This document shows, piece by piece, positions 3,384 through 20,497 of a stretch of 64,000 nucleotides of DNA. The DNA lies in UHGV virus genome UHGV-0084588. One strand, 5' to 3'. The translations under genes were made by a program, and so were the position numbers. Origin of the DNA: a virus. Within the stretch, counting starts at the first letter, position 1. Each line of letters begins with the position of its first letter. The notes beneath the pieces were generated by a model, which worked only from the letters and a program-made list of their open reading frames with translations, was not told where the DNA came from and did not search any database.

Positions 3384-3431
3384 CCGCCTACCGCCCGATT
3401 CTATGGGCGGTAGGTGTTTTTATTTTTTTTT
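3384..3431 (+). terminator. rho-independent terminator
   Basis: GC-rich inverted repeat CCGCCTACCGCCC...GGGCGGTAGGTG followed by a T-tract of about 14 nt. Confidence 0.75.
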
Positions 3432-3447: not shown

Positions 3448-4008
3448 GTGACTGCTTACGTACCTGATTTAAGTTTGTCCTCAGCCGAACTAGTGGTCGC
3501 TTTAATCAACCACGATAACGGTTCACGGTTGTCTCTAAGCGAAATCCGTATTAGCAACACTACGGCAAACCCATCCCCGACCACTTCGCGTCGTAACACA
3601 CTGACAGAGATTACAAAAATCAGGAAACCTGATGGTGCTTCTGTAGTTGTTTATTACGACCGTTTGGATGCGGACGAAGTGTTAGCGTCTGAACCTATTT
3701 TGATTTCGTTAGATGGTACTGAAGACAACCTTCGTGACATTTTAGGTGTTGTAAATGAATTCTGCGGAACGAACTTACAACCCGAGGATTTACGTGCTTC
3801 AGATATCACCTTAGGTAAAGAACCCATTGCTGTCAACGTTGCTGACGATTCCCCTGCGTGGATGAATGCGTTTATGGTGACGTTATTTGATACAACCGAA
3901 CGGGCATTGGCAAACGAAGAAGATGCAATCTTCTGTATTGATGATGAGGCCGTTCTTACCTTTGAGGTTCCAGATGACGGTACGGCTGAAGAAAATCCGG
4001 CTATATGA
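3448..4008 (+). CDS. fibre-associated paralog-family protein (family A, copy 1)
   Basis: GTG start with GGGAGG RBS 5 nt upstream (the ATG at 3403 lies inside the terminator hairpin); paralogous to 10163..10678 (VPDLSL, LINHDNG, CG.NLQP.DL motifs) and more distantly to 18506, 19368, 22511 and 23107. Confidence 0.6.
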   Translation: MTAYVPDLSLSSAELVVALINHDNGSRLSLSEIRISNTTANPSPTTSRRNTLTEITKIRKPDGASVVVYYDRLDADEVLASEPILISLDGTEDNLRDILGVVNEFCGTNLQPEDLRASDITLGKEPIAVNVADDSPAWMNAFMVTLFDTTERALANEEDAIFCIDDEAVLTFEVPDDGTAEENPAI

Positions 4009-4078
4009 GCTTGACGCTTTTACTGGTAATGGAGGCCAAAGTAAACTTTTATCAAGACTTAGTAAACCCAGATCATGA
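3974..4078 (+). pseudogene. truncated remnant of a tail-fibre N-terminal anchor domain
   Basis: 34-codon ORF MTVRLKKIRLYELDAFTGNGGQSKLL... closely resembles the N-termini of the fibre at 4213 (MAKAVKKIRLHDLRPYTGDIGEGVLLF) and of 10678 (MAELVGKVRIHELETLSEDITGVVVLA); overlaps the end of 3448..4008 in another frame, as the intact pair does at 10678. Confidence 0.4.
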
Positions 4079-4157
4079 GAACGCGGAATTGGACATCACT
4101 TTCACGTTAGAAGTTGATGGATTAAAACCAGTATAATAATCCGCTTATAAAAATGTT

Positions 4158-4190
4158 GGGGAGGTGCTTTACCTCCCCAGATCTTTTAGC
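4158..4190 (+). promoter_or_regulatory. stem-loop upstream of the tail-fibre start
   Basis: Perfect 8-bp inverted repeat GGGGAGGT-gcttt-ACCTCCCC followed by a short T-rich stretch, after a TATAAAAA box; terminator or 5' UTR structure. Confidence 0.4.
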
Positions 4191-4212
4191 TCCAGATAGA
4201 GAATTAAATATC

Positions 4213-7200
4213 ATGGCTAAAGCGGTAAAGAAAATACGTTTACACGATTTGCGTCCATACACCGGGGATATCGGTGAAGGCGTTTTACTTTTTTCGAAAG
4301 ACGAAAAAGATTATAAGTTACCCGTCCGCGAAATCGTTGCGGATATTGACACCGTCAGAAACGCGGTTGCTGATGCACAAACAGCTGCAGCCAAATCGCA
4401 GCAGTCTGCAACAGAAGCTACGCAAGCAAAAAATTTAGCGGAAACCGCGAAGCAACAAACTGACACGTTAGCTTCCACAGTCAGTGAGCAAGCGGGAACC
4501 GTTGCCACTAAAACTGCTGAAGTTAACAAAAAACACGCTGAAGTTTTAGCAGCGAAAACTGCCGTAGATACTGTTTCACAATCAGTAAATGAGAAGGCTC
4601 AAGCTGTCGCCACATCCGAACAATCTGTGACGGCTACGGCGGCTGATGTAACTAAGAAAGCAGAAACGGTTACGCAACAGGCCGGACAAGTTCAACAGAC
4701 GGCTACCAGCGTTGAAAATACCGCAGCTTCAGTCGAGGCCAGTAAAGGTGCAGTGGAGAAAATCGCTGCACAGGTCGCGAAAGATAAAGAAAGCTCAGAA
4801 GGGGCAGCTACGCGTTCGGAGTCAGCTGCCCTACGTGCGGAGAAAATCGCTGCCCAAGGATTAGTTGACGCTACTACAACCGGTAAAGGTATTGTTAAAC
4901 TTAACGATACCCTGACAAGCGATTCCGTGACTGAGGCTGCTACACCGTCCACGGTTAAACAGCTGAACGACGATTTACAGTTAAAAGCCAATAAACATTC
5001 GCCGAATTTTACGGGTAACCCGACATCCCCAAAACCGCCGAAGGACTCGAATGACACGAGTATCTCCACAACGTCCTGGGTGCGTGACGCGATTGCGGAA
5101 TTGGTTGGTTCTTCACCCGAGACGCTAAATACCTTAGCGGAATTAGCTGAGGCGTTAGGTAATGACCCTAACTTCGCAACAACGATCACTGAGGAACTTG
5201 CGCAGAAACAACCTCTCAGCCCGTTACTCACCGCTATTGCCGCAGTCACCACAGCGGCAAACAAACTCATGTATTTCACCGGCAGTAATAAAGTCGGATT
5301 AACAGATTTTACAGAAACGGCCAGATCCTTGTTAGCGAAAGGGTCAACTGCGGATATCATTAACTTCCTGGGTTTGAAACCCACCGTTGATAAAGCAAAC
5401 GGCGCATTACAGAAAAACTCTAACGGTGCTGATATCCCAAATAAAGAAACTTTTGCTCGCAACATCGGCCTATCTCCTGATACCTATCTGCGTTTCCGTG
5501 GCGAAATGCCTGTAGATGCTGATATTAACACATTTGCTCCAGATGCTAATTACACAGGAACATGGTCCAAGTCGACATCAACCAATGCGTCGATGGCAAA
5601 ACACTTCCCAGAAGACGGTGCAGTCGGTTATCTGGAAGTGTATAAAGCGGGCAACTACAGTGGAGCGCAACGTTTTACCTGCCGTAATGGTAACGTGTAC
5701 AACCGTATGTTGTCAGGTGCGTGGAACGGAACTAATGGCCCGTGGTCACCGTGGAGAATGGTAACTACCGGTGTACGTCCGTTATCTACATCGATCGATC
5801 TGAACTCCTTAGGCGGCGCTGAGCACATGGGTAACTGGCGTAACTCGTCCAGTTCGTTAGCGGTGTTCGACAGACATTATCCTGAAGAGGGCGGTAATGC
5901 GCAAGGCGTATTAGAAGTCATGGAAGGCGGTCTTTATGGACGGTTGCAACGATACACCACACGACATGGTACGATGTATGTCCGTGGTTTGACTGCGACT
6001 TGGGATTCTTCTAATCCGCAGTGGGAAGATTGGATTCAGGTTGGGTATCAGGTAGACGGTGCCTACTATAAGGGTAGCTTTAACGACTTAACTAAACCGG
6101 GCCGCTTTAGTGTTACCGGTGAGGCTACAGACAGTCCGTTAACAGACTCTGCTGGCGCAACCTTGCTAGGTGTTTGCGAAGTTACCTTACGCTTAGACGG
6201 TTCAGGCGTTGAACAAAATTATACCACATACGGTACAGGCGCAACTTCGAAAGGTCGCAAGTTCCAACGAATTCGTACAGGAAACGCCTGGAGCGAATGG
6301 CGAGAGATTTTCACATCCTATTCACTCCCGTTGACTTTAGGGATCGGTGGGGTTGCTGCTAAGGTCGATCCGTTAGACTGGCAAACATTCGACTTCGTTC
6401 CTGGCCAGATGATAAGTACACCGTTGAATACCATGAAAAATATTCCTGCGGGAATGGATTGGGGTGTTATCGACGGTAACTTGGTCACTATTCTTGTAGG
6501 GGCGTCGGAGGACACCGGTACTGGCCGGAGTATGTTGGTCTGGCGTGGTACAGTGTCTACTGCTAACTATCGCTTCTTTGCTGTTCGCGTCGCTGGTGAA
6601 AAGGGTAAACGTACTATTACTAGCCGCCAGATGCCCGTATTGAATGCAGCGCATACGTGGGCAGAAAAACAGACCTTTGCAAAAGGGTTATCGGGCGAAT
6701 TGACAGGTAATGCGTCAACGGCAACAAAACTGAAAACAGCCCGTTTAATCGGCGGTGTAAGTTTCGACGGTAGCGGCGACATTAGCCTCCCTGGTGTGAA
6801 CCAACAGGGTAATCAAAACACCTCTGGGAACGCGGGAACCGCAACCAAATTACAAACGGCTCGAAACATCAACGGTGTGAAATTTGATGGGTCTAGAGAC
6901 ATCAATATCAACACGTTGGTAGGACGTGGACGTGTTACTGCACTGTCTGGTTCAAACAAAGGTACACCCGGTATTCAGATGTACGAAGTTTACAATAACG
7001 GTTATCCAACCGCTTATGGTAACTTACTGCATTTGGGTGGCGCTACTGCGCTAGGTGAAGGCGAGCTGTTAATCGGATGGCCGGGGACGAGCGGTGCGCA
7101 CGCGCCTGTTTATATTCGTAGTCGACGTGATACGGCTGATGCACCGTGGTCAGATTGGGCACAAGTTTACACTGCCCGTGACAGCATTCCTGGCGTAAAT

Positions 7201-8655
7201 GCCACCGGTAATCAAGATACTACCGGCAACGCCGCTACCGCGACGAAACTGAAAACCGCTCGCAGGATCGGAGGCGTTACCTTTGACGGTACAGGTGATA
7301 TCAATTTACCGGGCGTTAACCAGCAAGGCAACCAGAATACGACAGGTAATGCAGCGACCGCTACTAAGTTACAAACCGCACGTAAGATCGGCGGTGTGCT
7401 TTTCGATGGGACAAAAGACGTTAATCTTCCTGGCGTAAACCAAACCGGTAACCAATCGACTACGGGGAATGCGGCGACAGCGACTAAGCTCCAGACTGCG
7501 CGAAATATAGGTGGTGTAGCTTTTGATGGTACTAAAGACATCAGTTTACCTGGAGTAAACCAAACAGGTAATCAGGCGACTACCGGAAACGCAGCCACGG
7601 CAACAAAGTTGCAAACCGCAAGAACCATTAACGGTATCGCATTTGACGGCACTAGAAATATATCGTTAGGACCTGCCGATATAGGTTGTCCGGCATCGCC
7701 TAGTGGTTGGTTAGAAACTGGCAAAGATGGCGGCGCAATAACTACAGCACAGCTAGTGACGTTATTGAAAAATAACGGCGCATTTACCACAAGATCGTGG
7801 GTTGCTCGCTGTGCATGGGCTTATGCCGCTAGTGCGTCCATACCACACAGCGAGACGGGTTGTGGTGTTATTCCGTTAGCTGGGGCCGTTATAGAAGTGA
7901 TTAGTAACGGTAATAGCACAAACAACTACACGATCCGTATAACGACTGCCACAACGGCGAGCGTCGGTGGCGCACTCACTAATGCGGAGTTTATCTACGT
8001 ATTTAACGGCGATACATACTCACCAGGCTGGCGTCGTGCTTACAATACGAGAAACAAGCCAACTGCTGCAGAAGTGGGTGCACTACCTTCGGGGGGCGGT
8101 ACTATAGGCGGCGATTTAACCGTTAACGGTAAATTGGCCACTAAATACCCTGATTTTCGAATCGCTTACGGTACCTACGGTTTTATTTTACGTAACGACG
8201 GTGCCAATACCTATTTCTTAGTAACCGACGCCGGACAAGCCGCAACGGGTTCCTGGAACGGATTACGCCCGTTGTCTTTTAATAATTCTAACGGCCAAGT
8301 AAACTTTGGACATAACGTTACTGGCAACGGTAACGGTTCGTTTAACGACGTACAGATTCGTTCTGACCGTCGTAACAAACGTAATCTGGTGAAGCTGGAT
8401 AAAGCTTTGGATCGGTTAGAGTTACTAACCGGTTATTTGTACGAAATTCAGCATCCGGATGACGGCTGGCAGACTTCTGTAGGTCTAATTGCTCAGGACG
8501 CATTAGAAGCGTTACCTGAACTTGTGTCTGAGGATGATGATGCCATTTCAGGCGAAAAACGTTTACGTCTAAACTACAATGGCGTTATTGCGCTGTTAGT
8601 AGAGGGTATGAAAGCGTTGCGTCAAGAGGTTAACGAAATTAAAGGAAGATCCTAA
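4213..8655 (+). CDS. long tail fibre protein with C-terminal intramolecular chaperone (S74-like)
   Basis: 1480 aa from the ATG at 4213. N-terminal Ala/Gln/Thr-rich segment; four copies of a W-containing ~70-aa knob-like domain; six 40-aa repeats (GNQNTTGNAATATKLQTAR.IGGV.FDGT.D..LPGVNQ) of the phage tail-fibre repeat type; C-terminal ~97 aa (SDRRNKRNLVKLDKALDRLELLTGYLYE...) resembles the self-cleaving chaperone of T5 pb1 / K1F endosialidase. Confidence 0.85.
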   Translation: MAKAVKKIRLHDLRPYTGDIGEGVLLFSKDEKDYKLPVREIVADIDTVRNAVADAQTAAAKSQQSATEATQAKNLAETAKQQTDTLASTVSEQAGTVATKTAEVNKKHAEVLAAKTAVDTVSQSVNEKAQAVATSEQSVTATAADVTKKAETVTQQAGQVQQTATSVENTAASVEASKGAVEKIAAQVAKDKESSEGAATRSESAALRAEKIAAQGLVDATTTGKGIVKLNDTLTSDSVTEAATPSTVKQLNDDLQLKANKHSPNFTGNPTSPKPPKDSNDTSISTTSWVRDAIAELVGSSPETLNTLAELAEALGNDPNFATTITEELAQKQPLSPLLTAIAAVTTAANKLMYFTGSNKVGLTDFTETARSLLAKGSTADIINFLGLKPTVDKANGALQKNSNGADIPNKETFARNIGLSPDTYLRFRGEMPVDADINTFAPDANYTGTWSKSTSTNASMAKHFPEDGAVGYLEVYKAGNYSGAQRFTCRNGNVYNRMLSGAWNGTNGPWSPWRMVTTGVRPLSTSIDLNSLGGAEHMGNWRNSSSSLAVFDRHYPEEGGNAQGVLEVMEGGLYGRLQRYTTRHGTMYVRGLTATWDSSNPQWEDWIQVGYQVDGAYYKGSFNDLTKPGRFSVTGEATDSPLTDSAGATLLGVCEVTLRLDGSGVEQNYTTYGTGATSKGRKFQRIRTGNAWSEWREIFTSYSLPLTLGIGGVAAKVDPLDWQTFDFVPGQMISTPLNTMKNIPAGMDWGVIDGNLVTILVGASEDTGTGRSMLVWRGTVSTANYRFFAVRVAGEKGKRTITSRQMPVLNAAHTWAEKQTFAKGLSGELTGNASTATKLKTARLIGGVSFDGSGDISLPGVNQQGNQNTSGNAGTATKLQTARNINGVKFDGSRDININTLVGRGRVTALSGSNKGTPGIQMYEVYNNGYPTAYGNLLHLGGATALGEGELLIGWPGTSGAHAPVYIRSRRDTADAPWSDWAQVYTARDSIPGVNATGNQDTTGNAATATKLKTARRIGGVTFDGTGDINLPGVNQQGNQNTTGNAATATKLQTARKIGGVLFDGTKDVNLPGVNQTGNQSTTGNAATATKLQTARNIGGVAFDGTKDISLPGVNQTGNQATTGNAATATKLQTARTINGIAFDGTRNISLGPADIGCPASPSGWLETGKDGGAITTAQLVTLLKNNGAFTTRSWVARCAWAYAASASIPHSETGCGVIPLAGAVIEVISNGNSTNNYTIRITTATTASVGGALTNAEFIYVFNGDTYSPGWRRAYNTRNKPTAAEVGALPSGGGTIGGDLTVNGKLATKYPDFRIAYGTYGFILRNDGANTYFLVTDAGQAATGSWNGLRPLSFNNSNGQVNFGHNVTGNGNGSFNDVQIRSDRRNKRNLVKLDKALDRLELLTGYLYEIQHPDDGWQTSVGLIAQDALEALPELVSEDDDAISGEKRLRLNYNGVIALLVEGMKALRQEVNEIKGRS
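6689..6909 (+). repeat. tandem 120-nt coding repeats (block 1, about 2 units)
   Basis: Repeated nucleotide units encoding ...TGNASTATKLKTAR.IGGV.FDGS.DI.LPGVNQ...; the minus-strand ORF 6567..6782 is a shadow of these. Confidence 0.7.
7189..7669 (+). repeat. tandem 120-nt coding repeats (block 2, 4 units)
   Basis: Units begin at about 7189, 7309, 7429 and 7549 (CCTGGCGTAAAC / CCGGGCGTTAAC ... GGTAA.CA...AC.AC.GG.AA.GC.GC.AC.GC.AC.AA); the minus-strand ORF 7212..7541 is a shadow. Confidence 0.8.
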
Positions 8656-9437
8656 TGGCAGTTGTCGGCGTAGGTGGTTGGATTGGTTCTTCAGCAAAAG
8701 CTGAAGCTGGTAACGAATGGATGTCTGGCGCGATGCGCACACTTGGTGTGCCGGTTCCAGGCTGGATGTCGCAATTGGCGGGAAAATCAAAAGAGGTCCA
8801 TTATTCTATTGGTGCTAACCATAGCTATAATAAGGATACTCTTATTAACTATTTACGTTCTTTAGGCTCTACTGCTGTCGTTGTGACTATTACGGGGGAT
8901 TTAGTGTCCCATAGTAGCACGGTTCCTTGTTTAGAATTCCCTAGCAATCTTCCAAATTCGTATATTACCCTCATCATCAATCCTGGGGTTACAGTATACG
9001 GCAGAGGAGGCAACGGCGGTTCTAACTCACCAGGCGGTGCAGGTGGAACCGCAATACAGAACGGAATAGGAAACAGACTGCGTATAACCAACCGTGGCGC
9101 TATTGCCGGAGGCGGTGGCGGCGGTGGCGGCGGTAACAGGGGTAGACTAACATTTGGTGGTGGCGGTGGTCGCCCATTCGGTGCTGGTGGGTCTTCCTCT
9201 CATATGAGTTCCGGTGCGGCTGCTGGTACTATTTCCGCTCCTGGTAGAGGATCTGTTGGTGAGGGGTCTCTTAGTGCATATACAGGCGGTTCGGGTGGTA
9301 ATGTCGGTGCTGCTGGAGGAAGATGTAATACTCATGGTAACGGTACAGAATATAACGGCGGAGCAGCTGGTAAAGCTGTTACTGGTAATGCGCCAAGATG
9401 GGACGCAGTAGGTGCAATATATGGTTCACGTGTTTAA
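8655..9437 (+). CDS. gp38-like tail-fibre adhesin with glycine-rich motifs
   Basis: N-terminus MAVVGVGGWIGSSAKAEAGNEWMS and the YGRGGNGGSNSPGGAGG / GGGGGGGGG / GGGGGRPFGAGGS segments match, from memory, the T2/T6-type gp38 adhesin; start overlaps the fibre stop (TAATG). Confidence 0.75.
   Translation: MAVVGVGGWIGSSAKAEAGNEWMSGAMRTLGVPVPGWMSQLAGKSKEVHYSIGANHSYNKDTLINYLRSLGSTAVVVTITGDLVSHSSTVPCLEFPSNLPNSYITLIINPGVTVYGRGGNGGSNSPGGAGGTAIQNGIGNRLRITNRGAIAGGGGGGGGGNRGRLTFGGGGGRPFGAGGSSSHMSSGAAAGTISAPGRGSVGEGSLSAYTGGSGGNVGAAGGRCNTHGNGTEYNGGAAGKAVTGNAPRWDAVGAIYGSRV
9108..9170 (+). repeat. GGC/GGT codon run encoding poly-glycine
   Basis: ggaggcggtggcggcggtggcggcggt... low-complexity triplet repeat inside the gp38-like gene. 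Confidence 0.6.
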
Positions 9438-9497
9438 TTTGAAAAAGTATGGGGGTACTCACTCCCCTCCTCGCATCTTTCAAAAGGTGGGGGTAAA

Positions 9498-10010
9498 ATG
9501 GCGGTAGCATCAGGATGGGTCGGATCTTCAGCTAAGAATGAAACTGGCGAACAATGGATGAGCGCTGCGGGTAGTAAATTAGGATTGGGTAGACCATTTA
9601 TGATGAGTCAAATGGTGGGCCGATCTACGGGTTGTAAAATTGCGACCGCTTACTACAAAGGGAATCCTCCTGATAAAGTTGAAAACTGGGGGGCCGTAGG
9701 TTCAGATTGGCCATTGGCTGAAAAGAACAAAGGCACAATTACTGGTGCTTCGAGCTGTGGTTTAGGTCGTTTAGTGGGGATCGTACTTACGCAAGCTCAC
9801 TACATTTCTGGTGTTCCACCCACTGCGGCTTTATACATCGCAGGAGGAAGGGCAAGTAATATTACAGTAACAGTTGGTGGGGTCTCACAAGTTTTCACCT
9901 ATAATAGTGTTATTAACGGTTTTCACTATTACTGGCAAGGAACACCTAGTTCGGCCTTTATAGCAGCAATGAAGAGAACGGGTGTTACACAAGATTTGAA
10001 AATTAGTTAA
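9498..10010 (+). CDS. gp38-like adhesin paralog (no glycine-rich region)
   Basis: N-terminus MAVASGWVGSSAKNETGEQWMSAAG parallels 8655..9437, with a different C-terminal domain; GGGGGTAAAATG RBS. Confidence 0.6.
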   Translation: MAVASGWVGSSAKNETGEQWMSAAGSKLGLGRPFMMSQMVGRSTGCKIATAYYKGNPPDKVENWGAVGSDWPLAEKNKGTITGASSCGLGRLVGIVLTQAHYISGVPPTAALYIAGGRASNITVTVGGVSQVFTYNSVINGFHYYWQGTPSSAFIAAMKRTGVTQDLKIS

Positions 10011-10162
10011 CTAATTGGGGTAAAACGACAACTAATGCTAGTAAAATAAGAGTTAGTGAATTCGTAATTCAATAATTTTTTATAGAAAGGCTGATTTATT
10101 AGAATCGGAGGGGGTAAGATGTTGCTAGAAACATTTCACCCCCTACCATAGGGAGTAAGCTT

Positions 10163-10678
10163 ATGGGGCAATTCGTGCCGGATTTGTCGTTAACTTCACT
10201 TAACATGGTTATTTCACTGGTTAACCATGACCTCCAGCTCGACTTGCAAGAGAACGAGGTTGAAGTCAGCGACGTAAAGACCAGTAACGAAATGGATCGT
10301 GACACCACTGCTGTTGTAAAGATAAAACGTCCGGACAACAGAACGTTGCAGATATATTACAACCGTTTAACCGCAGAGCGGTGGTTAAACCAGCAACCTA
10401 TCCTAGTAAAGGTTTCCGGTAATGGCTTTACCGCACACGATCTAATCGACGGAATTAACGCGGCTTGTGGTTGTAATTTACAACCCGACGATCTTACCGA
10501 CGAATCATTTACCGTAGGGAAAGACGCTGTAACGTTACAGGTTTCACCCAACTCGTTAGGTTATAAAGGCCAATTCTCCGTTCTGGTTTTCGGTAACGAT
10601 GAAGAAGCTGCTGTAGTAAAAGACAACGATTTAATCGTTACCGCAGATAACCGTGTCTTAACATTCGGAGGCCGCTAA
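10163..10678 (+). CDS. fibre-associated paralog-family protein (family A, copy 2)
   Basis: Paralog of 3448..4008; AGGGAG RBS; stop overlaps the next start (TAATG). Confidence 0.6.
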   Translation: MGQFVPDLSLTSLNMVISLVNHDLQLDLQENEVEVSDVKTSNEMDRDTTAVVKIKRPDNRTLQIYYNRLTAERWLNQQPILVKVSGNGFTAHDLIDGINAACGCNLQPDDLTDESFTVGKDAVTLQVSPNSLGYKGQFSVLVFGNDEEAAVVKDNDLIVTADNRVLTFGGR

Positions 10679-11298
10679 TGGCTGAACTGGTAGGAAAGGT
10701 GCGCATTCATGAACTGGAGACACTTTCAGAAGACATCACGGGTGTAGTAGTCTTAGCGTCTAAGGAACAAACTGAATACCAACTCCCGATTGAGAAATTA
10801 GGGGGTACCGAGGTTACAGTGAGTCCGTCAGCGAATAACATCCTTAAGTCTAACAACGATGGGTTGTTTGTTGACGGCACTCATCCGATTATACCAAAAA
10901 TGGATGCAAAAACCTTATCGGGAAATATGGTGGTAGAAAAAACGTTGACAGGTGGTGCGGTAATCTGCAAAACAACAGTTGACGTTAATAATAGACTGGG
11001 GGTTTCGCAATTATCTGGAGTGTCAATTTATAGCCAGTGTCTGTTGGAAAATAAATTGGTTTATCTGGGAGAAGACGGCAGTATTATTGATGCGTACTTC
11101 TACATTAGTAATACAAAGACCACAGCCAGTACAATAACCCACACCATTCGTGTTGTTTTAGCGAAGATACCCTCTAAAGTTATCGATATCACCGATTTGT
11201 CTGAAACCGAAGTACAATACGAGAATAGTAATTTACCTGTTAAGATCGTTATTAAACATCTTGCAGGGACAACACTTTCCCAGAACGGAATGAAATAA
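10678..11298 (+). CDS. short fibre-like protein sharing the N-terminal anchor of the long tail fibre
   Basis: N-terminus MAELVGKVRIHELETLSEDITGVVVLASKEQTEYQLP aligns with the first ~40 aa of 4213..8655; followed by a strong terminator. Confidence 0.6.
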   Translation: MAELVGKVRIHELETLSEDITGVVVLASKEQTEYQLPIEKLGGTEVTVSPSANNILKSNNDGLFVDGTHPIIPKMDAKTLSGNMVVEKTLTGGAVICKTTVDVNNRLGVSQLSGVSIYSQCLLENKLVYLGEDGSIIDAYFYISNTKTTASTITHTIRVVLAKIPSKVIDITDLSETEVQYENSNLPVKIVIKHLAGTTLSQNGMK

Positions 11299-11303
11299 AT
11301 TTT

Positions 11304-11350
11304 AGGTAGTAGGGGCTTAAGCCCCTACTACCTTTTCTTTTTTTTATTTT
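11304..11350 (+). terminator. rho-independent terminator
   Basis: AGGTAGTAGGGGC-ttaa-GCCCCTACTACCT hairpin followed by a T-run. Confidence 0.8.
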
Positions 11351-11353
11351 TTC

Positions 11354-11379
11354 TCAGATATATATTACCTAGGGGAGAG
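11354..11379 (+). promoter_or_regulatory. conserved 26-bp promoter-like motif (copy 1) with downstream hairpin
   Basis: TCAGATATATATTACCTAGGGGAGAG, one of four near-identical copies; followed by a hairpin and about 70 nt upstream of the ATG at 11426. Confidence 0.5.
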
Positions 11380-11425
11380 TGAAATTTACATTCACTCCAT
11401 TAGTTATAGCCGAAAGGAGGATTAG

Positions 11426-12277
11426 ATGTATCACCCGTATTATCTCCCGCGTATTCTAGCAAATAGGGACCCTGGTTATTACTACGAACAAACAAAGGGG
11501 TCTTTTAATCGACTTTACATTCGTGAATTTAATACCGACGAAATGACCGATGACCAGTATCTGGAGTATCTAAAAGACCTTTACAGTTTTTCAAAATCGA
11601 ATAAAGATGGCTTTGGACGTTCCGCAGTCATTAGAGATGGTGAATATCGCCATTTGGCTAAGCCTGTTACGTACCCTATTGTTACGCGAGCTTATACGTC
11701 GGATAGGCAATATATTGCTGAACTAAAATTTCCTTTACGGATAGACGGGCCTCAAATTAGCGCTATAGAAGTAGAAATTCAACCAATTGCTGAAAACTAT
11801 ATTGAGGACTACTTCAAGAAAGCTAAAGACGTACTCGACGAGGGTTTAAGTTACTCTGAAGAAGGCACGATTTGTCTTCTCTCGTTACTCACGAAGACTT
11901 ACGTCACGGCAAATTTCCGTGTCTCTGATTCCAGTAACTACAATACACTTACTCCCTCTAAGACAAAATCGGTTTATTGGGACGATCGGTTAGTCGACAG
12001 ACAACGCTGGCTTACTATCTTAGATAGAGTAAAATTCGAACCCCCTAAACACACCGAAGACAATTTTATTTTATTGCACAACTTCGAACCAATTTATATT
12101 CCAACGCATTTTGATCAAGCCTTACGTCATCGGTTGAAGTATGTGTTGGAATTACGGTACGGAAAGATAAACGGACTAACCTGTTCCGGTGAATTGGGTG
12201 AAGAAGAACGCGAGAAGATAAAAATCGTGTTTGATAAGTTGGTTGAAGATTACATTAAGAAGGAAGGGCAATTATGA
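11426..12277 (+). CDS. hypothetical protein
   Basis: 283-aa ORF; AAAGGAGG RBS. Confidence 0.65.
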   Translation: MYHPYYLPRILANRDPGYYYEQTKGSFNRLYIREFNTDEMTDDQYLEYLKDLYSFSKSNKDGFGRSAVIRDGEYRHLAKPVTYPIVTRAYTSDRQYIAELKFPLRIDGPQISAIEVEIQPIAENYIEDYFKKAKDVLDEGLSYSEEGTICLLSLLTKTYVTANFRVSDSSNYNTLTPSKTKSVYWDDRLVDRQRWLTILDRVKFEPPKHTEDNFILLHNFEPIYIPTHFDQALRHRLKYVLELRYGKINGLTCSGELGEEEREKIKIVFDKLVEDYIKKEGQL

Positions 12278-12717
12278 AACCAAATACTACTAACGGCATT
12301 ATGCTACTTTGTGATTCTGAAACGTTAGCAAATCGCATTCGTGGTTTGATGCAAGTACGTTGGCGGCAGAAAGTTCTCGTGGATTACGATGCACCGTTTG
12401 TTCACATTACCTGGCTGCCAGAAGCTAGTGATTTCAAAGAACGTATAACCACGAGAAGAATTAAAGAATGGTTATCGGCAATCATTAATAAACAGATTAC
12501 CGTTATCAATTTCCAACTTTTCGGTACCGCTGAAGAACATGAAATCTTGAAGCAGTGTTTAAGAGACTTGGGTCTTTCCTCTTCTGTTCGTGGTAGCTGC
12601 TACACGGCTTACTTTATCGGTTCACTTGAACTGTTTAAGAATACACTAATGCTTCAACTAAAAGACGACTACAAACTTTTAGATAAAATCGATTTCGAAT
12701 TCCCAGGCATGATTTAA
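12274..12717 (+). CDS. hypothetical protein
   Basis: 147-aa ORF; ATGA overlap with the upstream gene. Confidence 0.6.
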   Translation: MKPNTTNGIMLLCDSETLANRIRGLMQVRWRQKVLVDYDAPFVHITWLPEASDFKERITTRRIKEWLSAIINKQITVINFQLFGTAEEHEILKQCLRDLGLSSSVRGSCYTAYFIGSLELFKNTLMLQLKDDYKLLDKIDFEFPGMI

Positions 12718-13605: not shown

Positions 13606-13980
13606 ATGTCATTACTGTTATACAAATTCAGATGTTGGCTAGACACTTCGTTTAAAACCTGGGCTTGCGGCAAGAATGTCACAACGGTAGTTAAATCGGG
13701 TGACTGGTATACGGAAATTATTACATTAGCAAATGGAGGATTGCAAAACGTACAAGTTCGTAACGTAGTTGTTAGAATAGGACGTGAAGGAGGTGCAATC
13801 TTCAACTCTGAATACTATCAAGTTTCTGCCCTGGAGTTAAAAAACGGTCCGATTTTATTTATCGGTACAGCACAACACCTTTACGATACAGTTGTTAAGT
13901 TTGCTGAAAGGGTAAAACGTTTAAATGATTCGCTTAGTAAGTTTATTAAAGAAACTGAACGAACTACGGTGGAGATTTAA
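13606..13980 (+). CDS. hypothetical protein (tandem paralog 1)
   Basis: 124 aa; shares WACGKNVTTVVKSGDWYTE...NG.L.NV.VR.V.V..GR.GG..F.SE and LF..TAQ..YD with 13984..14370. Confidence 0.6.
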   Translation: MSLLLYKFRCWLDTSFKTWACGKNVTTVVKSGDWYTEIITLANGGLQNVQVRNVVVRIGREGGAIFNSEYYQVSALELKNGPILFIGTAQHLYDTVVKFAERVKRLNDSLSKFIKETERTTVEI

Positions 13981-13983
13981 AAG

Positions 13984-14370
13984 ATGCGTTTATTTTACTT
14001 AAAAAGGCGTTTGTCATTAAAAGCCCAACTGTTTGTTAACGAGAAAGTTAAAAACTGGCTGTGCGGTAAAAGGGTACAATATGTCGTTAAAGAAGGAGAC
14101 TGGTATACGGAGGTTGTGACTTCCCCTAACGGTGAACTTATAAACGTTACTATTCGTGACGTTATGGTTAAGGTTGGTAGGGGTGGCGGTCGGTTGTTTG
14201 AATCGGAAACTATAAGAGTCGCTGCTAAACAATTGAAAGATGGTCGAGTTTTATTCAATGTTACCGCCCAGAAATACTACGACAATTTATTCGAGTGTCA
14301 ACGAGCAATGGACAGAATGACCCGTGAGATGCGAAGAATGCACATTACGGAGATCACAATAGGAGTTTAA
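13984..14370 (+). CDS. hypothetical protein (tandem paralog 2)
   Basis: 128 aa; paralog of 13606..13980. Confidence 0.6.
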   Translation: MRLFYLKRRLSLKAQLFVNEKVKNWLCGKRVQYVVKEGDWYTEVVTSPNGELINVTIRDVMVKVGRGGGRLFESETIRVAAKQLKDGRVLFNVTAQKYYDNLFECQRAMDRMTREMRRMHITEITIGV

Positions 14371-15870: not shown

Positions 15871-16647
15871 ATGAAAACTATCGAGTTTAAGAATAGTAGT
15901 CTTTGGGCATACACGCACATCATTACGAGTTTCCTGAGAAACGTTACTCCACATCTTGCTTATCAGATTTATGGGAATGAGCTCACTATCGGTGGTTTTA
16001 ACGAGGATGAATTAAAACGAGCAAAAGAGTTCATTGACGATGTTCTTCGTGGTGAAGCAACGTGTTTAGTTGCAAGTTACGTTGCTAAAGACAAAGGAAG
16101 ATTAAACGTCATGGCAATTTTCAGATCGTTCTCCGAAAAAGTATACGAAGTTGAGAAGATTAGTCATACCGTTTATATTGTTTACTTTAAACGTTCGGCG
16201 GAGAAAAACGCTGATAAAATTCTGGAGTATTTCGACTGTAACCCGGGGGAAGGTATGGATGTCTATACGCTCGGTTACGATGGGGTACCTCACCGGAATA
16301 ACCTTATTCGCATTGACGAACCTTTTTCAGTCAATGACGATTCCTCGCCTATAGAGATGGTTCTGGTACACAAAGATCGTTTCGCGCATTACGACTCTGA
16401 TACTATTCAACGTGTCCTGAACAACGTTAATATACAGTTTTCACAAACCGAGCACTTAGTACGTGCATGTCTTAGGTCTAATGGCACAACATCATTTTTC
16501 TTCGAACGTCAAACCGTTTGGCAAACTTATCTGGCTCTGATGGAAGAACTTGATAGGATCGAGCCAGTTCAGGTTGGTGCAAATTGCTTATATTGGATAA
16601 AAACAAAAGGGTTCATGAATGAAAACGCTCAATTCAGATTTGCGTGA
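15871..16647 (+). CDS. hypothetical protein
   Basis: 258-aa ORF; AAAAGGAAAATAAA-ATG context. Confidence 0.6.
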   Translation: MKTIEFKNSSLWAYTHIITSFLRNVTPHLAYQIYGNELTIGGFNEDELKRAKEFIDDVLRGEATCLVASYVAKDKGRLNVMAIFRSFSEKVYEVEKISHTVYIVYFKRSAEKNADKILEYFDCNPGEGMDVYTLGYDGVPHRNNLIRIDEPFSVNDDSSPIEMVLVHKDRFAHYDSDTIQRVLNNVNIQFSQTEHLVRACLRSNGTTSFFFERQTVWQTYLALMEELDRIEPVQVGANCLYWIKTKGFMNENAQFRFA

Positions 16648-17047
16648 TTACATCCGTCAGTACCCAGCCAGTATTCCTGTACTGGCTTCACTTACGCTTT
16701 CAGGTACTGACGTTAACATCTTAACGGTGGAACAGTTCCACGAGATAATAAAAACCGCCTATAACTCCATTACCGCAACGTCAGTACGTAAACGTTGCGA
16801 TTATCCCGACGGGGATTTCGGCACCGAGATGTTTACCGATTACGCAGTTGCGTTTCTGTTAGGACGACACTGCCTCGATAAACTTAACACTGCAGTAGAA
16901 GGGGAAACAGTGACGGAAATAGTCAACGCTTGGCAGCAACGTATTCTGAGCGACCCTTACTGCCGCCAGGCGTTAAAACGAATGTCCACAACGGCGATTA
17001 CAAACGACCAGCGTGCTTTAGAGTTCTTTAAGCACAACTACAGCTAA
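16619..17047 (+). CDS. hypothetical protein (paralog of 17908..18339)
   Basis: 142 aa; N-terminal LNSDLRDYIRQYP.SIPVLA parallels LNDEIRNYIRNNPIALGVLA of 17908. Confidence 0.55.
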   Translation: MKTLNSDLRDYIRQYPASIPVLASLTLSGTDVNILTVEQFHEIIKTAYNSITATSVRKRCDYPDGDFGTEMFTDYAVAFLLGRHCLDKLNTAVEGETVTEIVNAWQQRILSDPYCRQALKRMSTTAITNDQRALEFFKHNYS

Positions 17048-17907: not shown

Positions 17908-18339
17908 ATGTTTTTCGTATTAAATGATGAAATCCGTAACTACATTCGTAACAATCCGATTGCTCTGGGCGTTTTAGCAGGTTTCTGTCGCCCAAATACT
18001 GACTTCGATTTAGTTAAGTTAGAAGAATATCAGGAAATTGTGAATACTAACTACATGCACATCTGTAGCTGGGGTAAACGTCCTCGTGAAGAGTACCCTG
18101 TAGGTGAGTTAGGTGACACTATGCATCGTGACCAGAATCTGATGCACGAATTCGTTGAATACACACTGGAAAATCTTAACTATCCGCTTCTGGTCGACAC
18201 TGTACCAGAAATGGTTGACGAATGGTTAAGTCGTGTTTACAATGACCCTACTACCAACAAGTTACTGAGTCAGATGTCGCAAACTTCTCGTGATATCGAC
18301 ACTCGCACCCTAATGTACTTAGCACACAACGTTCGCTAA
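17908..18339 (+). CDS. hypothetical protein (paralog of 16619..17047)
   Basis: 143 aa; preceded by the conserved TTTACCTAAAGGAGTATTAAAATG context. Confidence 0.6.
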   Translation: MFFVLNDEIRNYIRNNPIALGVLAGFCRPNTDFDLVKLEEYQEIVNTNYMHICSWGKRPREEYPVGELGDTMHRDQNLMHEFVEYTLENLNYPLLVDTVPEMVDEWLSRVYNDPTTNKLLSQMSQTSRDIDTRTLMYLAHNVR

Positions 18340-18505: not shown

Positions 18506-19354
18506 ATGTCTCTTACGTCAAAACAGAAACTGCTAAAACTCATCAACACTGAAAACAATATTGTTCCGCCATTGACCTTCAGTGATGTTGATATCGGCGA
18601 ACCTACTGGTACTGGGGTTGATACCCAGGTGGTTCTGACTTCTAAACTCAAAGGCGATGAGTCTACTACTTTAACGGTGACTTACCATCGTCGTAATTTG
18701 CCAGAATACCTAACAGGCGAGTTGGTATTCGGTAACGACGGTGTTGTAACTGCTGCAGATTTGCTTAATGCAATCAACGCAAAATACGATTTAAATATTC
18801 TGCCGTCAGATATCGTTGATGCGAAAGTTGAAGGTAAAACCCACCAACTTGCCGCTAACGAGAAATCCTACGAGTGGTGTGGCGAAGTGACACTTACGCT
18901 ACGCGATCCTATTGATCTGGCTAAACTGCTACCTGTTACTCAATTAGAAAACCTGGTAGAGTATCCGTCCACCAAGAAAGGTAACGCTGCGGTTTATTCT
19001 TATCCGATTGACTTCACCGCAGAAAAAGATTACCTTGATCCGATTACCATTAACGACACCGTAGACTTAGTAGAGTTAGCTACTAAACTGACTAACGTTG
19101 TTGACGAGAAATGGGTAAGCGTACCTAAGAACGCTGCTAATAACTTGTTCGGTGCTAAGGTTATCTACGATGGCCCTACCGCAGGTTTCGAAGGCGCAAA
19201 TGCGAAGTACACGCGTGTGCTGGTACTCGCCCTAAGCGGTATGTGTTCTAACCTGACCGGTAAACTGTTAATTCACTTTAACGGAACCGATCGTCCGAAG
19301 TCGAAGATTGAATTAGCCAAGACTAATTCGGTCTTACCGGGATTCTTAGATTAA
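18506..19354 (+). CDS. paralog-family protein (family A-related)
   Basis: 282 aa; N-terminus LINTENN...FSDVDIGEPTG...TLTVTYHRRNL...DLLNAINAKYDLNILPSDI aligns with 3448, 10163, 19368, 22511 and 23107. Confidence 0.6.
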   Translation: MSLTSKQKLLKLINTENNIVPPLTFSDVDIGEPTGTGVDTQVVLTSKLKGDESTTLTVTYHRRNLPEYLTGELVFGNDGVVTAADLLNAINAKYDLNILPSDIVDAKVEGKTHQLAANEKSYEWCGEVTLTLRDPIDLAKLLPVTQLENLVEYPSTKKGNAAVYSYPIDFTAEKDYLDPITINDTVDLVELATKLTNVVDEKWVSVPKNAANNLFGAKVIYDGPTAGFEGANAKYTRVLVLALSGMCSNLTGKLLIHFNGTDRPKSKIELAKTNSVLPGFLD

Positions 19355-19367: not shown

Positions 19368-19844
19368 ATGACCAGTCAAGAAACTATCTTCGACCTTATT
19401 AAAAAGGCTAACCCAGACGCCGAGCTCGACACCGCCAAAGTCACATTGGGTGAGCCCGTCGTAAGTACCGGTACGTACAACACCGAAATTACGGTTGCGC
19501 CGGTGAAGAATCTCGGTTATGTTAATAAGCAAACGTTCCAGTATAACCGCATTGATGCAGGTTTGTATTTCCTCAACGTATTGCCGAAACTGTTAGTTGA
19601 AACAGCCACCACGACTGCGGACTTGCTGCCTGTAATTAACGAGCAGTATGGCTTAACCCTTACCGAAGACGATGTGTGGGTAGAGCAGGTTGGTGCGTTA
19701 CCGCTAGACGGCAGTGCAATCGAGCACGGTATTTTCTTCCGCCCAGAGTGTCTAACCTGGGTCGGTGGTTTTACAGTGCGTGTTGCGCGTAAACCGTCTG
19801 TCGAGACACCGCCAGCTAAGCCATCGCGCGCTAAGAAGAAATAA
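19368..19844 (+). CDS. paralog-family protein (family A-related)
   Basis: 158 aa; same motif series (DLIKKANPD...VTLGEP...QYNRID...ADLLPVINEQYGLTLTEDDV). Confidence 0.6.
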   Translation: MTSQETIFDLIKKANPDAELDTAKVTLGEPVVSTGTYNTEITVAPVKNLGYVNKQTFQYNRIDAGLYFLNVLPKLLVETATTTADLLPVINEQYGLTLTEDDVWVEQVGALPLDGSAIEHGIFFRPECLTWVGGFTVRVARKPSVETPPAKPSRAKKK

Positions 19845-19906: not shown

Positions 19907-20497
19907 ATGGCCGAACGTTGGACTAAAGAAGGTATTATTGAATCAAAAACAGATTTAGAGGGTGGGTACGTGAACGACCCTGACGATAAAGGTGGGGAAA
20001 CCTGTCACGGGGTAACACTGACAACTGCACGCGAATACGGGTACAAAGGAAGAATGAAAGATCTGACCCGTGCGCAAGCGTTTGATATTTACGATCGTGG
20101 TTGGTGGAAGAAACTTAAACTCGATGAGATTTTCGCTATCTCGCCGATACTCGCAGACCGGATGTTTGATTTTGGTATTAACTCTGGCCGTGTTAACTGT
20201 GTGAAATCATTACAACGTATTCTCAACGTTTTAAATAACGAAGGGAAACTTTACGCAGATATTGACACCGACGGTGGCATGGGCCCTAAAACGCTAGGTG
20301 CCCTGAATGCTTATCTGAATTACCGTAAAGGCGAGGGATTAGGCATCTTAATCTTTGCGTTAATCTCACACCAGGTAACCTACTACACGGAAATCTCCGA
20401 AAAGCGTAAGAAGAATGAAAAATTCGCTTACGGCTGGTACGGACGCGTGTACAGGGAAATGCCGGATTATGTAGTGAAGGCGGGGTTAGTAAAATGA
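19907..20497 (+). CDS. GH108-type lysozyme with peptidoglycan-binding domain (putative endolysin)
   Basis: N-terminal EGGYVNDPDDKGGETCHGVT matches the GH108 signature; C-terminal part resembles PG_binding_3; AGAGGAG RBS. Confidence 0.7.
   Translation: MAERWTKEGIIESKTDLEGGYVNDPDDKGGETCHGVTLTTAREYGYKGRMKDLTRAQAFDIYDRGWWKKLKLDEIFAISPILADRMFDFGINSGRVNCVKSLQRILNVLNNEGKLYADIDTDGGMGPKTLGALNAYLNYRKGEGLGILIFALISHQVTYYTEISEKRKKNEKFAYGWYGRVYREMPDYVVKAGLVK

What the first reader, a model, noticed from the sequence alone, without database searches (positions are those of the whole stretch)
3448..11298. Duplicated receptor-binding cassette: two family-A/anchor-gene pairs flanking a long fibre and two gp38-like adhesins
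Gene order is A1 (3448), anchor remnant (3974), long fibre (4213), gp38-like adhesin with poly-Gly (8655), second gp38-like (9498), A2 (10163), short anchor-bearing protein (10678). Each family-A gene is translationally coupled to a gene with the conserved KIRLH[DE]L anchor N-terminus. Two alternative adhesins with the same attachment domain but different C-terminal domains suggest dual receptor specificity or a recently exchanged host-range module.
Basis: partly seen in the sequence, partly recalled or inferred. Interest (0 to 1): 0.65.

Follow-up and report, generated by a model that had tools for sequence, protein, structure and literature searches.

The report
Jumbo phage fibre with two adhesins
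This stretch is the host-recognition locus of a giant SPN3US-like phage: a long tail fibre with a T2/S16-type tip, followed by two different tip-adhesin genes and flanked by two small baseplate-adaptor genes, one of which lost its original partner genes by deletion; it is an instructive mosaic of parts that are mostly already known.

Summary
In detail: all seven ORFs exist at the stated coordinates and the profile assignments hold. The window is a ~225-kb chimallivirus related to SPN3US. "Family A" is Pfam DUF7941. A1 is the orthologue of SPN3US gp122. The A2 model matches one solved structure, the phiKZ outer-baseplate chain. The KIRLH[DE]L N-terminus is a ~45-residue anchor shared with SPN3US gp123, a tail-associated virion protein. 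The "anchor remnant" is the scar of a 3.4-kb deletion that removed gp123/gp124-like genes; at least nine related contigs share the same junction. The long fibre ends in a T2/S16 gp37-type tip with a self-cleaving chaperone domain. gp38a is a polyglycine (T2/S16-type) adhesin. gp38b is an RB43-type small adhesin with the same attachment domain and an unrelated β-sandwich head. Across 22 related loci, a gp38b-type gene is always present. A second adhesin gene precedes it in 16. Both genes are under purifying selection. In S16, one gp38 monomer caps one fibre trimer, so mixed populations of fibre tips, and hence two receptor specificities, are the likeliest outcome. This is inferred, not shown. 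"Recently exchanged module" is disfavoured. Tandem adhesin genes also occur in about 2% of Gp38_N-bearing phage records. Verdict: new variant of a known kind, moderate interest.

The parts
3385..3416 (+). Terminator-like hairpin (13 bp stem followed by a T run) that closes the upstream unit, just before A1
   Evidence: sequence
3448..4008 (+). A1: short DUF7941 protein (186 aa, GTG start), orthologue of SPN3US gp122
   Evidence: Pfam DUF7941 8e-19. 45% identical to SPN3US gp122 and 87% to the L001 orthologue. dN/dS 0.07-0.15.
3974..4078 (+). 5' scar: the first ~20 codons of a gp123-like anchor gene, then out-of-context sequence (34 codons in all)
   Evidence: Aligns with the N-terminus of L001 gp123-like and of SPN3US gp123. 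The deletion junction is shared colinearly with L045, L046, L052, L054, L056 and L057.
4083..4139 (+). 3' scar: the last ~57 nt of the deleted gp124-like (1002-aa tail protein) gene
   Evidence: Window 4083 onward aligns with L001 8008 onward, and the L001 gene ends at 8064
4156..4180 (+). Terminator-like hairpin that would have ended the gp123/gp124 unit; it now sits between A1 and the fibre
4213..8655 (+). Long tail fibre, 1480 aa. Anchor at 4213-4347. Phage_fiber_2 at 4873-4992. 120-nt gp37/gp34-type repeats at 7348-7624. Gp34_trimer-like domain at 7978-8277. Intramolecular chaperone from S1384 (nt 8362) to the end.
   Evidence: Pfam, PHROGs tail-fibre families, TRF. C-terminus aligns with S16 gp37 (6F45_A) across the SDRR motif, 1e-13. 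Coordinates.
8655..9437 (+). gp38a: T2/S16-type adhesin (260 aa). Attachment domain with W9, W22 and W37, a β-helix and a polyglycine sandwich. Start overlaps the fibre stop (TAATG).
   Evidence: Pfam GP38 2e-70 and Gp38_N. phrog_2056 6e-94. 64-69% identical to Tequatrovirus gp38. Junction. Trp positions.
9498..10010 (+). gp38b: RB43-type small adhesin (170 aa). Gp38_N attachment domain (W7, W20, M35) plus a ~125-aa β-sandwich head. Has its own Shine-Dalgarno sequence.
   Evidence: Gp38_N 8e-21. phrog_1121 over its full length, 3e-54. Residues 1-43 align with S16 gp38 6F45_D. 37% identical to RB43. AF2 model. dN/dS ~0.1. SD.
10163..10678 (+). A2: short DUF7941 protein (171 aa), N-terminal domain plus a disordered tail
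   Evidence: Pfam 6e-17. AF2 model. The only significant PDB fold match is the phiKZ outer peripheral baseplate chain 9xqd_0, E 1.6e-9.
10678..11298 (+). Short anchor-bearing protein (206 aa), TAATG-coupled to A2. In some relatives this slot holds a 706-aa anchor+SASA esterase protein instead.
   Evidence: Anchor alignment. C-terminus matches phrog_33169. Orthologues are 91-99% identical. Alternatives in this slot.
11304..11333 (+). Strong terminator-like hairpin that ends the fibre-gp38a-gp38b-A2-short block
   Evidence: sequence
11426..12277 (+). 283-aa ORF of unknown function. Often, but not always, co-present with the gene after A2. Membership of the locus is uncertain.
   Evidence: No Pfam or PHROG hit. 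Presence and absence across relatives.

Best explanation
This is the host-recognition locus of an SPN3US-related chimallivirus (jumbo phage). Every receptor-binding protein of the locus starts with the same ~45-residue anchor. That anchor is what ties the protein to the outer rim of the baseplate, probably through the short DUF7941 proteins A1 and A2 encoded next to them.

The ancestral locus had three modules:
1. A1, a gp123-like adaptor and a gp124-like 1000-aa tail protein.
2. The long fibre with its tip adhesins.
3. A2 and a short or esterase-bearing protein.

In the window, module 1 has lost gp123/gp124 by a 3.4-kb deletion. Only A1 and two scars remain.

The long fibre carries a T2/S16 gp37-type distal end. 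It trimerises with the help of its C-terminal intramolecular chaperone, which then cuts itself off before Ser1384. The exposed tip is then capped by a single monomeric adhesin that plugs in through its Gp38_N helical bundle. Two adhesins with this plug are made from the same terminator-bounded block. gp38a is the polyglycine type that binds outer-membrane proteins in T-even phages. gp38b is the RB43 type with a β-sandwich head. They compete for the one cap position per fibre, so a virion carries a mixture of fibre tips and can use two receptors.

Shown: gene identities, homologies, the deletion, conservation of the pair, and purifying selection.
Inferred: anchor-DUF7941 docking, autoproteolysis, one cap per fibre, co-incorporation of both adhesins, and dual specificity.
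For: Phage identity:
- 73-76% nt matches to SPN3US-like and Erwinia jumbo phages.
- 86.6% nt identity to a 222-kb Enterobacter 'plasmid', L001.

A proteins and the anchor:
- A1 and A2 match DUF7941.
- The A2 fold matches only phiKZ 9xqd_0 in the outer peripheral baseplate. [quoted passage not shown]
- The anchor is shared with SPN3US gp123. gp123 and gp124 are virion proteins not flagged as head proteins.
- A short DUF7941 gene sits immediately upstream of an anchor-bearing fibre or spike gene in SPN3US, Asesino and Eowyn (three pairs in Eowyn).
- The slot after A2 holds either the short protein or an anchor+SASA esterase protein.
- A1 stays under purifying selection in the deletion clade (dN/dS 0.07).

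Deletion:
-.

Fibre tip:
- Peptidase_S74 domain, and alignment to the S16 gp37 crystal construct.
- In S16, one gp38 caps the gp37 trimer through three conserved Trp (PMC6851490).
- gp38a keeps 3 of 3 Trp. gp38b keeps 2 of 3 plus a Met.

gp38b as a genuine adhesin:
- SSU5-like phage-plasmids carry either type alone at the same position after the fibre gene.
- RB42/RB43 host-range mutations map to the C-terminal domain of this type.
- It is the only Gp38_N gene in 6 related jumbo loci and in about 27 prophage or plasmid loci.

Both genes maintained:
- Two adhesin genes in 16 of 22 loci, in three combinations.
- dN/dS about 0.1 for gp38b and 0.15-0.44 for gp38a.
- No strong terminator between 4180 and 11304.
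Against: - No expression or virion data exist for this phage.
- SPN3US gp122, the A1 orthologue, was not detected in virions, and the rest of that paralogue family was called 'head' because it appeared in a tailless mutant (PMC5694885). A chaperone or other role for A is therefore not excluded.
- The long fibre has no DUF7941 gene of its own in the ancestral gene order.
- gp38a is dispensable in nature. It is absent from 6 loci, and L039 carries a 48-aa in-frame deletion.
- gp38b lacks the third Trp, so its affinity for the tip may differ.
- The anchor profile found no solved structure, so docking is conjecture.
- Competition for one site, as opposed to different sites, could not be modelled. 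No multimer prediction was available.
Confidence: 0.6

Rival explanations
1. Only one adhesin is functional at a time. gp38b is the obligate tip protein. The upstream gene (gp38a or the 180-aa type) is a passenger brought in by recombination with phage-plasmids or T-even-like fibres, tolerated but not incorporated, or the reverse.
For: gp38b-type is present in 22 of 22 loci while the first position is variable or empty. gp38a carries an in-frame deletion in L039 and a 3' remnant is left in L054. gp38a and gp38b are 83-92% nt identical to phage-plasmid genes, which shows exchange. GC of the fibre and gp38a is 49-50% against 40-45% in the flanking genes.
Against: gp38a is TAATG-coupled to the fibre gene and keeps all three docking Trp. 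dN/dS is 0.15-0.44 across relatives. A gene in the first position is retained in 16 of 22 loci, in three different type combinations.
Confidence: 0.2
2. gp38b is not a receptor binder. It is an assembly factor or chaperone for the fibre (as T4 gp38 is for T4 gp37), or a cap that merely protects the tip.
Against: T4 gp38 belongs to an unrelated family. gp38b carries the Gp38_N plug that holds adhesins on gp37. RB42/RB43 host-range mutations map to residue 100 of the homologous C-terminal domain. The fibre already has its own intramolecular chaperone. Two allelic head types only 62% identical circulate in the lineage, consistent with specificity variants.
Confidence: 0.1
3. A1 and A2 are not structural adaptors. 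They are non-virion assembly factors for the anchor-bearing proteins, or members of a head-associated family with no role in host recognition. The gene adjacency reflects co-regulation only.
For: SPN3US gp122 was not detected by virion mass spectrometry, and family B members were seen in a tailless mutant.
Against: The A2 fold matches the phiKZ outer peripheral baseplate chain 9xqd_0, which the Goslar preprint identifies as the gp127 N-terminal domain. Goslar DUF7941 proteins are virion-associated and form filaments, and some carry glycan-binding or glycan-hydrolysing domains. In L040, A2 is fused to a tail-fibre C-terminal domain. Synteny with anchor-bearing genes holds in three genera.
Confidence: 0.2

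Closest known systems
T2 / S16-type long tail fibre tip (gp37 with C-terminal intramolecular chaperone plus gp38 polyglycine adhesin; PDB 6F45)
   Same: The fibre C-terminus aligns with S16 gp37 through the SDRR chaperone motif. gp38a has Gp38_N, the three docking Trp and the glycine-rich GP38 domain. The adhesin gene lies directly after the fibre gene.
   Different: The fibre is a single 1480-aa protein with a chimallivirus N-terminal anchor, not a gp34-37 four-protein fibre. The host phage is a jumbo phage and not a member of Straboviridae. A second adhesin gene follows.
RB43-type gp38 (174 aa; first ~50 aa like T6 gp38, unrelated C-terminal specificity domain; Trojet et al. 2011, PMC3157838); PHROG 1121
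   Same: gp38b has the same architecture and length, matches phrog_1121 over its full length, and is 37% identical to RB43 over residues 6-125.
   Different: It is distant in sequence. Here it is the second of two adhesin genes. The third docking Trp is replaced by Met.
SPN3US gp122-gp123-gp124 module (also Erwinia phage Asesino gp139-141)
   Same: A1 is 45% identical to gp122. The anchor of the fibre, the remnant and the short protein matches the gp123 N-terminus. The gene order and overlap are the same.
   Different: In the window, gp123/gp124 are deleted. A long fibre, two adhesins and a second A+anchor pair have been added.
Chimallivirus DUF7941 proteins (Goslar gp22/gp23, phiKZ gp126/gp127; bioRxiv 10.64898/2026.04.21.720040)
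   Same: Pfam membership. The A2 model matches the phiKZ outer peripheral baseplate chain 9xqd_0, which the preprint identifies as the gp127 N-terminal domain. A1 and A2 have the domain-plus-linker layout of Goslar gp23.
   Different: The preprint proposes long DUF7941 filaments (a 'fibre cloud'). It does not describe pairing of short DUF7941 genes with anchor-bearing receptor-binding genes.
Tail-fibre locus of SSU5-like phage-plasmids of E. coli and Shigella (e.g. NC_018651, NZ_CP020118)
   Same: Fibres have the same chaperone end. gp38b is 91-92% nt identical and gp38a 83-84% nt identical to their adhesin genes.
   Different: Each plasmid has one adhesin gene, of one type or the other. The jumbo phage has both in tandem.
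Tandem 'tail fiber adhesin' genes in Winklervirus (Erwinia phage Virsaitis27 ORF266/267; Serratia phage LC53 gp252/253)
   Same: Two Gp38_N genes follow gene 37.
   Different: Both are of the small type and sit in a T4-like phage. No functional analysis was found in the literature searched here. Only 17 of 879 Gp38_N-bearing phage records show two copies.

Membership tests
gp38 adhesin, T2/S16 polyglycine type (applies to gp38a) | N-terminal Gp38_N attachment domain with three conserved Trp | tested here: met
   Gp38_N 5e-14; W9, W22 and W37; Trp role from PMC6851490
gp38 adhesin, T2/S16 polyglycine type (applies to gp38a) | Glycine-rich motifs interspersed with hypervariable segments (Pfam GP38) | tested here: met
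   GP38 2e-70 covering profile positions 1-218 of 218. The segments between the glycine-rich motifs differ between window and L001 while the motifs are conserved.
gp38 adhesin, T2/S16 polyglycine type (applies to gp38a) | Encoded directly after a gp37-type fibre gene whose C-terminal chaperone is removed | tested here: met
   TAATG junction. Peptidase_S74 domain and alignment to S16 gp37. Cleavage itself was not tested.
gp38 adhesin, T2/S16 polyglycine type (applies to gp38a) | One monomer caps the fibre trimer and binds an outer-membrane protein | not testable with these tools
   Needs multimer modelling, virion proteomics and receptor screens
RB43-type small gp38 adhesin / PHROG 1121 (applies to gp38b) | First ~50 residues homologous to the gp38 attachment domain | tested here: met
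   Gp38_N 8e-21. Residues 1-43 align with S16 gp38. Only 2 of 3 Trp are kept (W7, W20, M35).
RB43-type small gp38 adhesin / PHROG 1121 (applies to gp38b) | About 120-aa C-terminal domain unrelated to the polyglycine domain, homologous within the family | tested here: met
   phrog_1121 matched at residues 1-169 against profile positions 1-179 of 181, 3e-54. tblastn to RB43 and to Klebsiella T4-like phages. Confident β-sandwich model.
RB43-type small gp38 adhesin / PHROG 1121 (applies to gp38b) | Determines host range | not testable with these tools
   Shown genetically only for RB42/RB43
DUF7941 chimallivirus proteins (applies to A1 and A2) | Match to PF25613 above the gathering score | tested here: met
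   68.6 and 62.5 bits against a cut-off of 27
DUF7941 chimallivirus proteins (applies to A1 and A2) | Fold of the N-terminal globular domain as in phiKZ gp127 | tested here: met
   A2 model versus 9xqd_0: E 1.6e-9, TM 0.58/0.65. A1 was not modelled.
DUF7941 chimallivirus proteins (applies to A1 and A2) | Virion or baseplate association and head-to-tail oligomerisation | not testable with these tools
   SPN3US gp122 was not detected in virions. The Goslar and phiKZ data come from the preprint.
SPN3US gp122-gp123-gp124 tail module | All three genes intact and adjacent | tested here: not met
   Only A1 and 5'/3' scars remain in the window. The module is intact in L001, L039 and L048.

The most novel reading that the evidence does not exclude
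The short DUF7941 proteins may be dedicated sockets. The ~45-residue anchor of any receptor-binding protein would dock on the N-terminal domain of the DUF7941 protein encoded just upstream, mimicking the linker-to-domain contact that builds DUF7941 filaments. The DUF7941 tail would in turn plug into the peripheral baseplate. Chimallivirus host range would then be set by freely exchangeable 'socket + anchored protein' cassettes. On top of that, the long fibre would use a second exchange level: two or more monomeric caps competing for one trimeric tip, giving phenotypically mixed virions.
Probability: 0.3. Interest if true: 0.7.

Novelty: new variant of a known kind. Interest (0 to 1): 0.5.

Why it matters
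How chimalliviruses attach their fibres is unresolved. The peripheral baseplate and the fibres could not be modelled in either the Goslar or the phiKZ cryo-EM maps. This locus gives a concrete hypothesis that can be tested by sequence and structure: a conserved 45-residue anchor paired with short DUF7941 proteins. A natural series of relatives supports it, in which modules are deleted, swapped or fused.

The locus also shows that T2/S16-type tip modules move between T-even-like phages, SSU5-like phage-plasmids and jumbo phages. A lineage found in Salmonella, Shigella, E. coli and Enterobacter assemblies stably keeps two different caps for one fibre. That makes it a compact system for studying, or engineering, dual receptor use.

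Tried and rejected
1. I first read the megablast hits as lying inside the fibre ("knob domains like RB49 gp38"). The query began at window 3400, so those hits are simply gp38a and gp38b. The idea was withdrawn (note).
2. Sigma-70 promoter scan: fewer sites than in shuffled sequence. It is uninformative for a phage that uses its own RNA polymerases.
4. A2 against the PDB by sequence: nothing. Only the fold search worked.
5. Anchor profile against PDB sequences: nothing. The anchor-baseplate contact therefore cannot be read from the phiKZ structure.
6. tblastn of the short protein against isolated phages: no match. It is lineage-specific.
7. "Recent duplication of an A+anchor cassette" was rejected. 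A1 and A2 are 34% identical, and A1 is closer to SPN3US gp122 than to A2.
8. "Tandem Gp38_N genes are unique to this lineage" was rejected. 17 of 879 phage records have two copies, for example Virsaitis27.
9. gp38b capping the short protein instead of the long fibre was rejected. L001 and L041 lack the short protein but keep gp38b.
Full report
**What the window is.**
- Megablast of the window against plasmids finds one close relative. It is a circular 222-kb "plasmid" of Enterobacter ludwigii (NZ_CP134650, locus L001; 86.6% identity over 81% of the first 25 kb).
- Against isolated phages, only 73-76% matches over small fractions appear. They are to SPN3US-like Salmonella/E. coli jumbo phages and to Erwinia jumbo phages.
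- Seoulvirus (SPN3US) belongs to Chimalliviridae.
- Orthologues of the locus genes sit on 150-226-kb contigs in Salmonella, Shigella and E. coli assemblies and in metagenomes. They also sit on a 221.9-kb "plasmid" of E. coli 98232.
- The window is therefore part of a ~225-kb chimallivirus lineage known only from assemblies.

**Checking the observation.**
- Pfam gives DUF7941 for A1 (8e-19) and A2 (6e-17).
- The fibre matches Phage_fiber_2, Gp34_trimer and Peptidase_S74.
- The 8655 gene matches GP38 (2e-70) plus Gp38_N. The 9498 gene matches Gp38_N alone (8e-21).
- PHROGs agrees. phrog_2056 ("tail fiber protein; host specificity") matches gp38a. phrog_1121 ("tail fiber adhesin") matches gp38b over its full length at 3e-54.
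- The shared N-terminus is real. Within the window it links the fibre, the short protein and the remnant. A profile of the two intact copies finds only 17 representatives among 1.84 billion proteins. Every match is at residues 1-48, in proteins of 31 to 1494 residues.
- Fibre/gp38a and A2/short overlap as TAATG. gp38b has its own strong Shine-Dalgarno sequence.
- Strong terminator-like hairpins lie at 3385-3416, 4156-4180 and 11304-11333, and none lies between the last two. The fibre, both adhesins, A2 and the short gene therefore form one terminator-bounded block.

**What "family A" and the anchor are.**
- A1 is the orthologue of SPN3US gp122 (45% identity). A2 is a diverged paralogue, 34% identical to A1 and 31% to gp122.
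- In SPN3US the order is gp122, gp123 (156 aa, annotated tail fibre protein) and gp124 (1005 aa, tail-associated).
- gp123 begins with the same anchor.
- SPN3US virion mass spectrometry lists gp123 and gp124 without the "head" flag. gp122 was not detected. The authors suspected gp122 of belonging to their 20-member "paralog family B" (PMC5694885).
- A 2026 preprint on phage Goslar names this family DUF7941 and reports that it is specific to chimalliviruses. It shows filament formation by gp22. It places the phiKZ gp127 N-terminal domain in the outer peripheral baseplate. It notes DUF7941 proteins fused to glycan-binding or glycan-hydrolysing domains.
- My AF2 model of A2 is folded at residues 1-149 with a disordered tail. 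It has a single significant PDB match, the phiKZ outer peripheral baseplate chain 9xqd_0 (E 1.6e-9, TM 0.58/0.65).
- The same pairing recurs in other genera. A short DUF7941 gene lies immediately upstream of a gene whose product starts with the anchor in Erwinia phage Asesino (gp139/gp140). It occurs three times in Klebsiella phage Eowyn (gp226/227, gp229/230, gp234/235), ahead of fibre or β-helix proteins.
- The window has four more DUF7941 genes that are not so paired.

**The remnant is a deletion scar.**
- In L001, A1 is followed by an intact gp123-like gene (anchor plus a ~100-aa domain) and a gp124-like gene (70% identical to SPN3US gp124). The long fibre comes next.
- Window 4027-4082 replaces L001 4648-8007. 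The window retains the first ~20 codons of the gp123-like gene and the last ~57 nt of the gp124-like gene.
- The junction region (3950-4230) aligns end to end at 87-93% with six sampled relatives. Those six plus L047, L053 and L055, which show the same remnant ORF, make nine relatives with the scar. It is a single, inherited event.
- Conversely, L001 and L041 have lost the short protein and the 283-aa ORF, and scars remain there too.
- A1 remains under purifying selection inside the deletion clade (dN/dS 0.07). It therefore still has a function, plausibly serving the fibre, whose anchor is closer to that of gp123 than to that of the short protein.

**The fibre and its two caps.**
- The last 150 residues of the fibre align with the crystallised S16 gp37 construct (6F45_A). 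The alignment includes the SDRR motif that opens the intramolecular chaperone (1e-13).
- More proximal parts resemble T4 gp34 and Mu/P1 S fibres.
- In S16, a single gp38 monomer caps the gp37 trimer. Three conserved Trp on its helical bundle insert into three equivalent pockets (PMC6851490).
- gp38a keeps all three Trp (W9, W22, W37). gp38b keeps W7 and W20 and has Met at the third position.
- gp38b residues 1-43 align with S16 gp38 residues 1-44. Residues 45-170 model confidently as a β-sandwich with no close solved relative.
- gp38b has the architecture that Trojet et al. described for RB43 gp38. In that protein, host-range mutants of RB42 and RB43 map to residue 100 of the C-terminal domain. 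tblastn links gp38b to RB43 and to Klebsiella T4-like phages.
- SSU5-like phage-plasmids carry, at the same position after their fibre gene, either a polyglycine gp38 (NZ_CP020118) or a gp38b-type gene (NC_018651). These are 83-84% and 91-92% nt identical to the window genes. Each type can therefore serve alone.

**Comparative survey.** I assembled 22 loci of the lineage. Several are nearly identical to one another.

| Position after the fibre | Loci |
|---|---|
| Polyglycine type + gp38b type 1 | 4 |
| Polyglycine type + gp38b type 2 | 8 |
| Divergent 180-aa phrog_1121 member + gp38b type 2 | 4 |
| gp38b type 2 alone | 6 |

- A gp38b-family gene is present in all 22 loci. There are two allelic head types, 62% identical.
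- A second Gp38_N gene precedes it in 16 loci.
- One of the polyglycine + type 2 loci (L039) carries a 48-aa in-frame deletion in the polyglycine gene.
- Where gp38b stands alone, L054 still shows a 3' remnant of gp38a.
- dN/dS is about 0.1 for gp38b and 0.15-0.44 for gp38a.

| Slot after A2 | Loci |
|---|---|
| Short protein | 12 |
| 706-aa anchor + SASA esterase + DUF6645 protein | 7 |
| Split version of the 706-aa gene | 1 |
| Empty | 2 |

- In L040, A2 is fused behind a domain that matches the C-terminal parts of tail-fibre PHROGs.
- Outside the jumbo lineage, about 27 prophage or plasmid loci with gp38b homologues have a single Gp38_N gene.
- Among isolated phages, 17 of 879 records with a Gp38_N match have two copies. 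One example is the tandem "tail fiber adhesin" pair of Erwinia phage Virsaitis27, a Winklervirus.

**Interpretation.**
- The parts are known kinds: the DUF7941/gp122-gp123 system of chimalliviruses, a T2/S16-type fibre end, a polyglycine gp38 and an RB43-type gp38.
- The combination is what is unusual. A jumbo phage has grafted a T-even or phage-plasmid type tip module onto its own anchor. It stably keeps two heterotypic caps.
- One cap fits one trimer, and both genes are conserved, co-oriented and in the same terminator-bounded block. Mixed fibre tips and dual receptor use are therefore the most economical reading (confidence about 0.6).
- Virion incorporation, cleavage of the chaperone, anchor-DUF7941 docking and receptor identities remain inferred.
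- gp38a is closest (64-69% identity) to Tequatrovirus adhesins. These include T4_ev240, reported as OmpA-specific in a preprint. This is only a lead, because specificity resides in the hypervariable loops.

**Novelty and score.** The locus is not a new kind of system, and tandem adhesin genes have annotated precedents. It is still a new variant. It adds a testable link between DUF7941 proteins and fibre anchoring, which the current chimallivirus structures leave open. I rate interest at 0.5.

Noticed in passing
window 18506-19354, 19368-19844, 22511-23041, 23107-23637: Four further DUF7941 paralogues. The first is full length (282 aa, 2e-52). None is followed by an anchor-bearing gene. They may be the baseplate-bound or filament-forming members of the family.
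   Followed up: partly
window 19907-20497 and 20605-21279: A GH108/PG_binding_3 endolysin-like gene and a DUF1353 gene lie between the DUF7941 paralogues.
   Followed up: no
window 24877-26211 (- strand) and neighbours: A radical-SAM gene homologous to the 'radical SAM superfamily' genes of SPN3US-like phages. It is divergently oriented relative to the structural block.
   Followed up: no
window 13606-13980 / 13984-14370 and 16619-17047 / 17908-18339: Two pairs of small paralogous ORFs of unknown function. The similarity was seen by eye in the translations.
   Followed up: no
whole window; L001, L044, L046, L049, L052, L056, L057; NZ_CP173450: This ~222-226-kb chimallivirus lineage appears only as large contigs or circular 'plasmids' in Salmonella, Shigella, E. 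coli and Enterobacter assemblies and in metagenomes. No isolated phage in the August 2025 collection is close to it. This suggests carrier-state persistence in cultures.
   Followed up: partly
L040 6217-8151: A2 is fused in frame behind a ~475-aa domain that matches the C-terminal parts of tail-fibre PHROGs 13714 and 7032. This would be a DUF7941 protein that itself carries a receptor-binding or enzymatic domain.
   Followed up: partly
L039 8735-9373: gp38a carries a 48-aa in-frame deletion between two glycine-rich motifs. It looks like recombination between the repeats and removes part of the polyglycine sandwich.
   Followed up: partly
L052-L055, L057-L059 (about 10517-12637 in each): The slot after A2 holds a 706-aa protein instead of the 206-aa short protein. 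It has the anchor, a SASA (sialate O-acetylesterase family) domain and DUF6645. In L056 the gene is split in two.
   Followed up: partly
L056-L059 (e.g. L057 8799-9341): A third adhesin type of 180 aa. It has a Gp38_N domain with only one of the three Trp and is a divergent phrog_1121 member. It takes the place of gp38a upstream of gp38b.
   Followed up: partly
window 5500-6400 (fibre residues ~440-720): Three consecutive ~90-residue segments with similar Trp-containing motifs, seen by eye in the translation. They had no Pfam match and were not analysed further.
   Followed up: no
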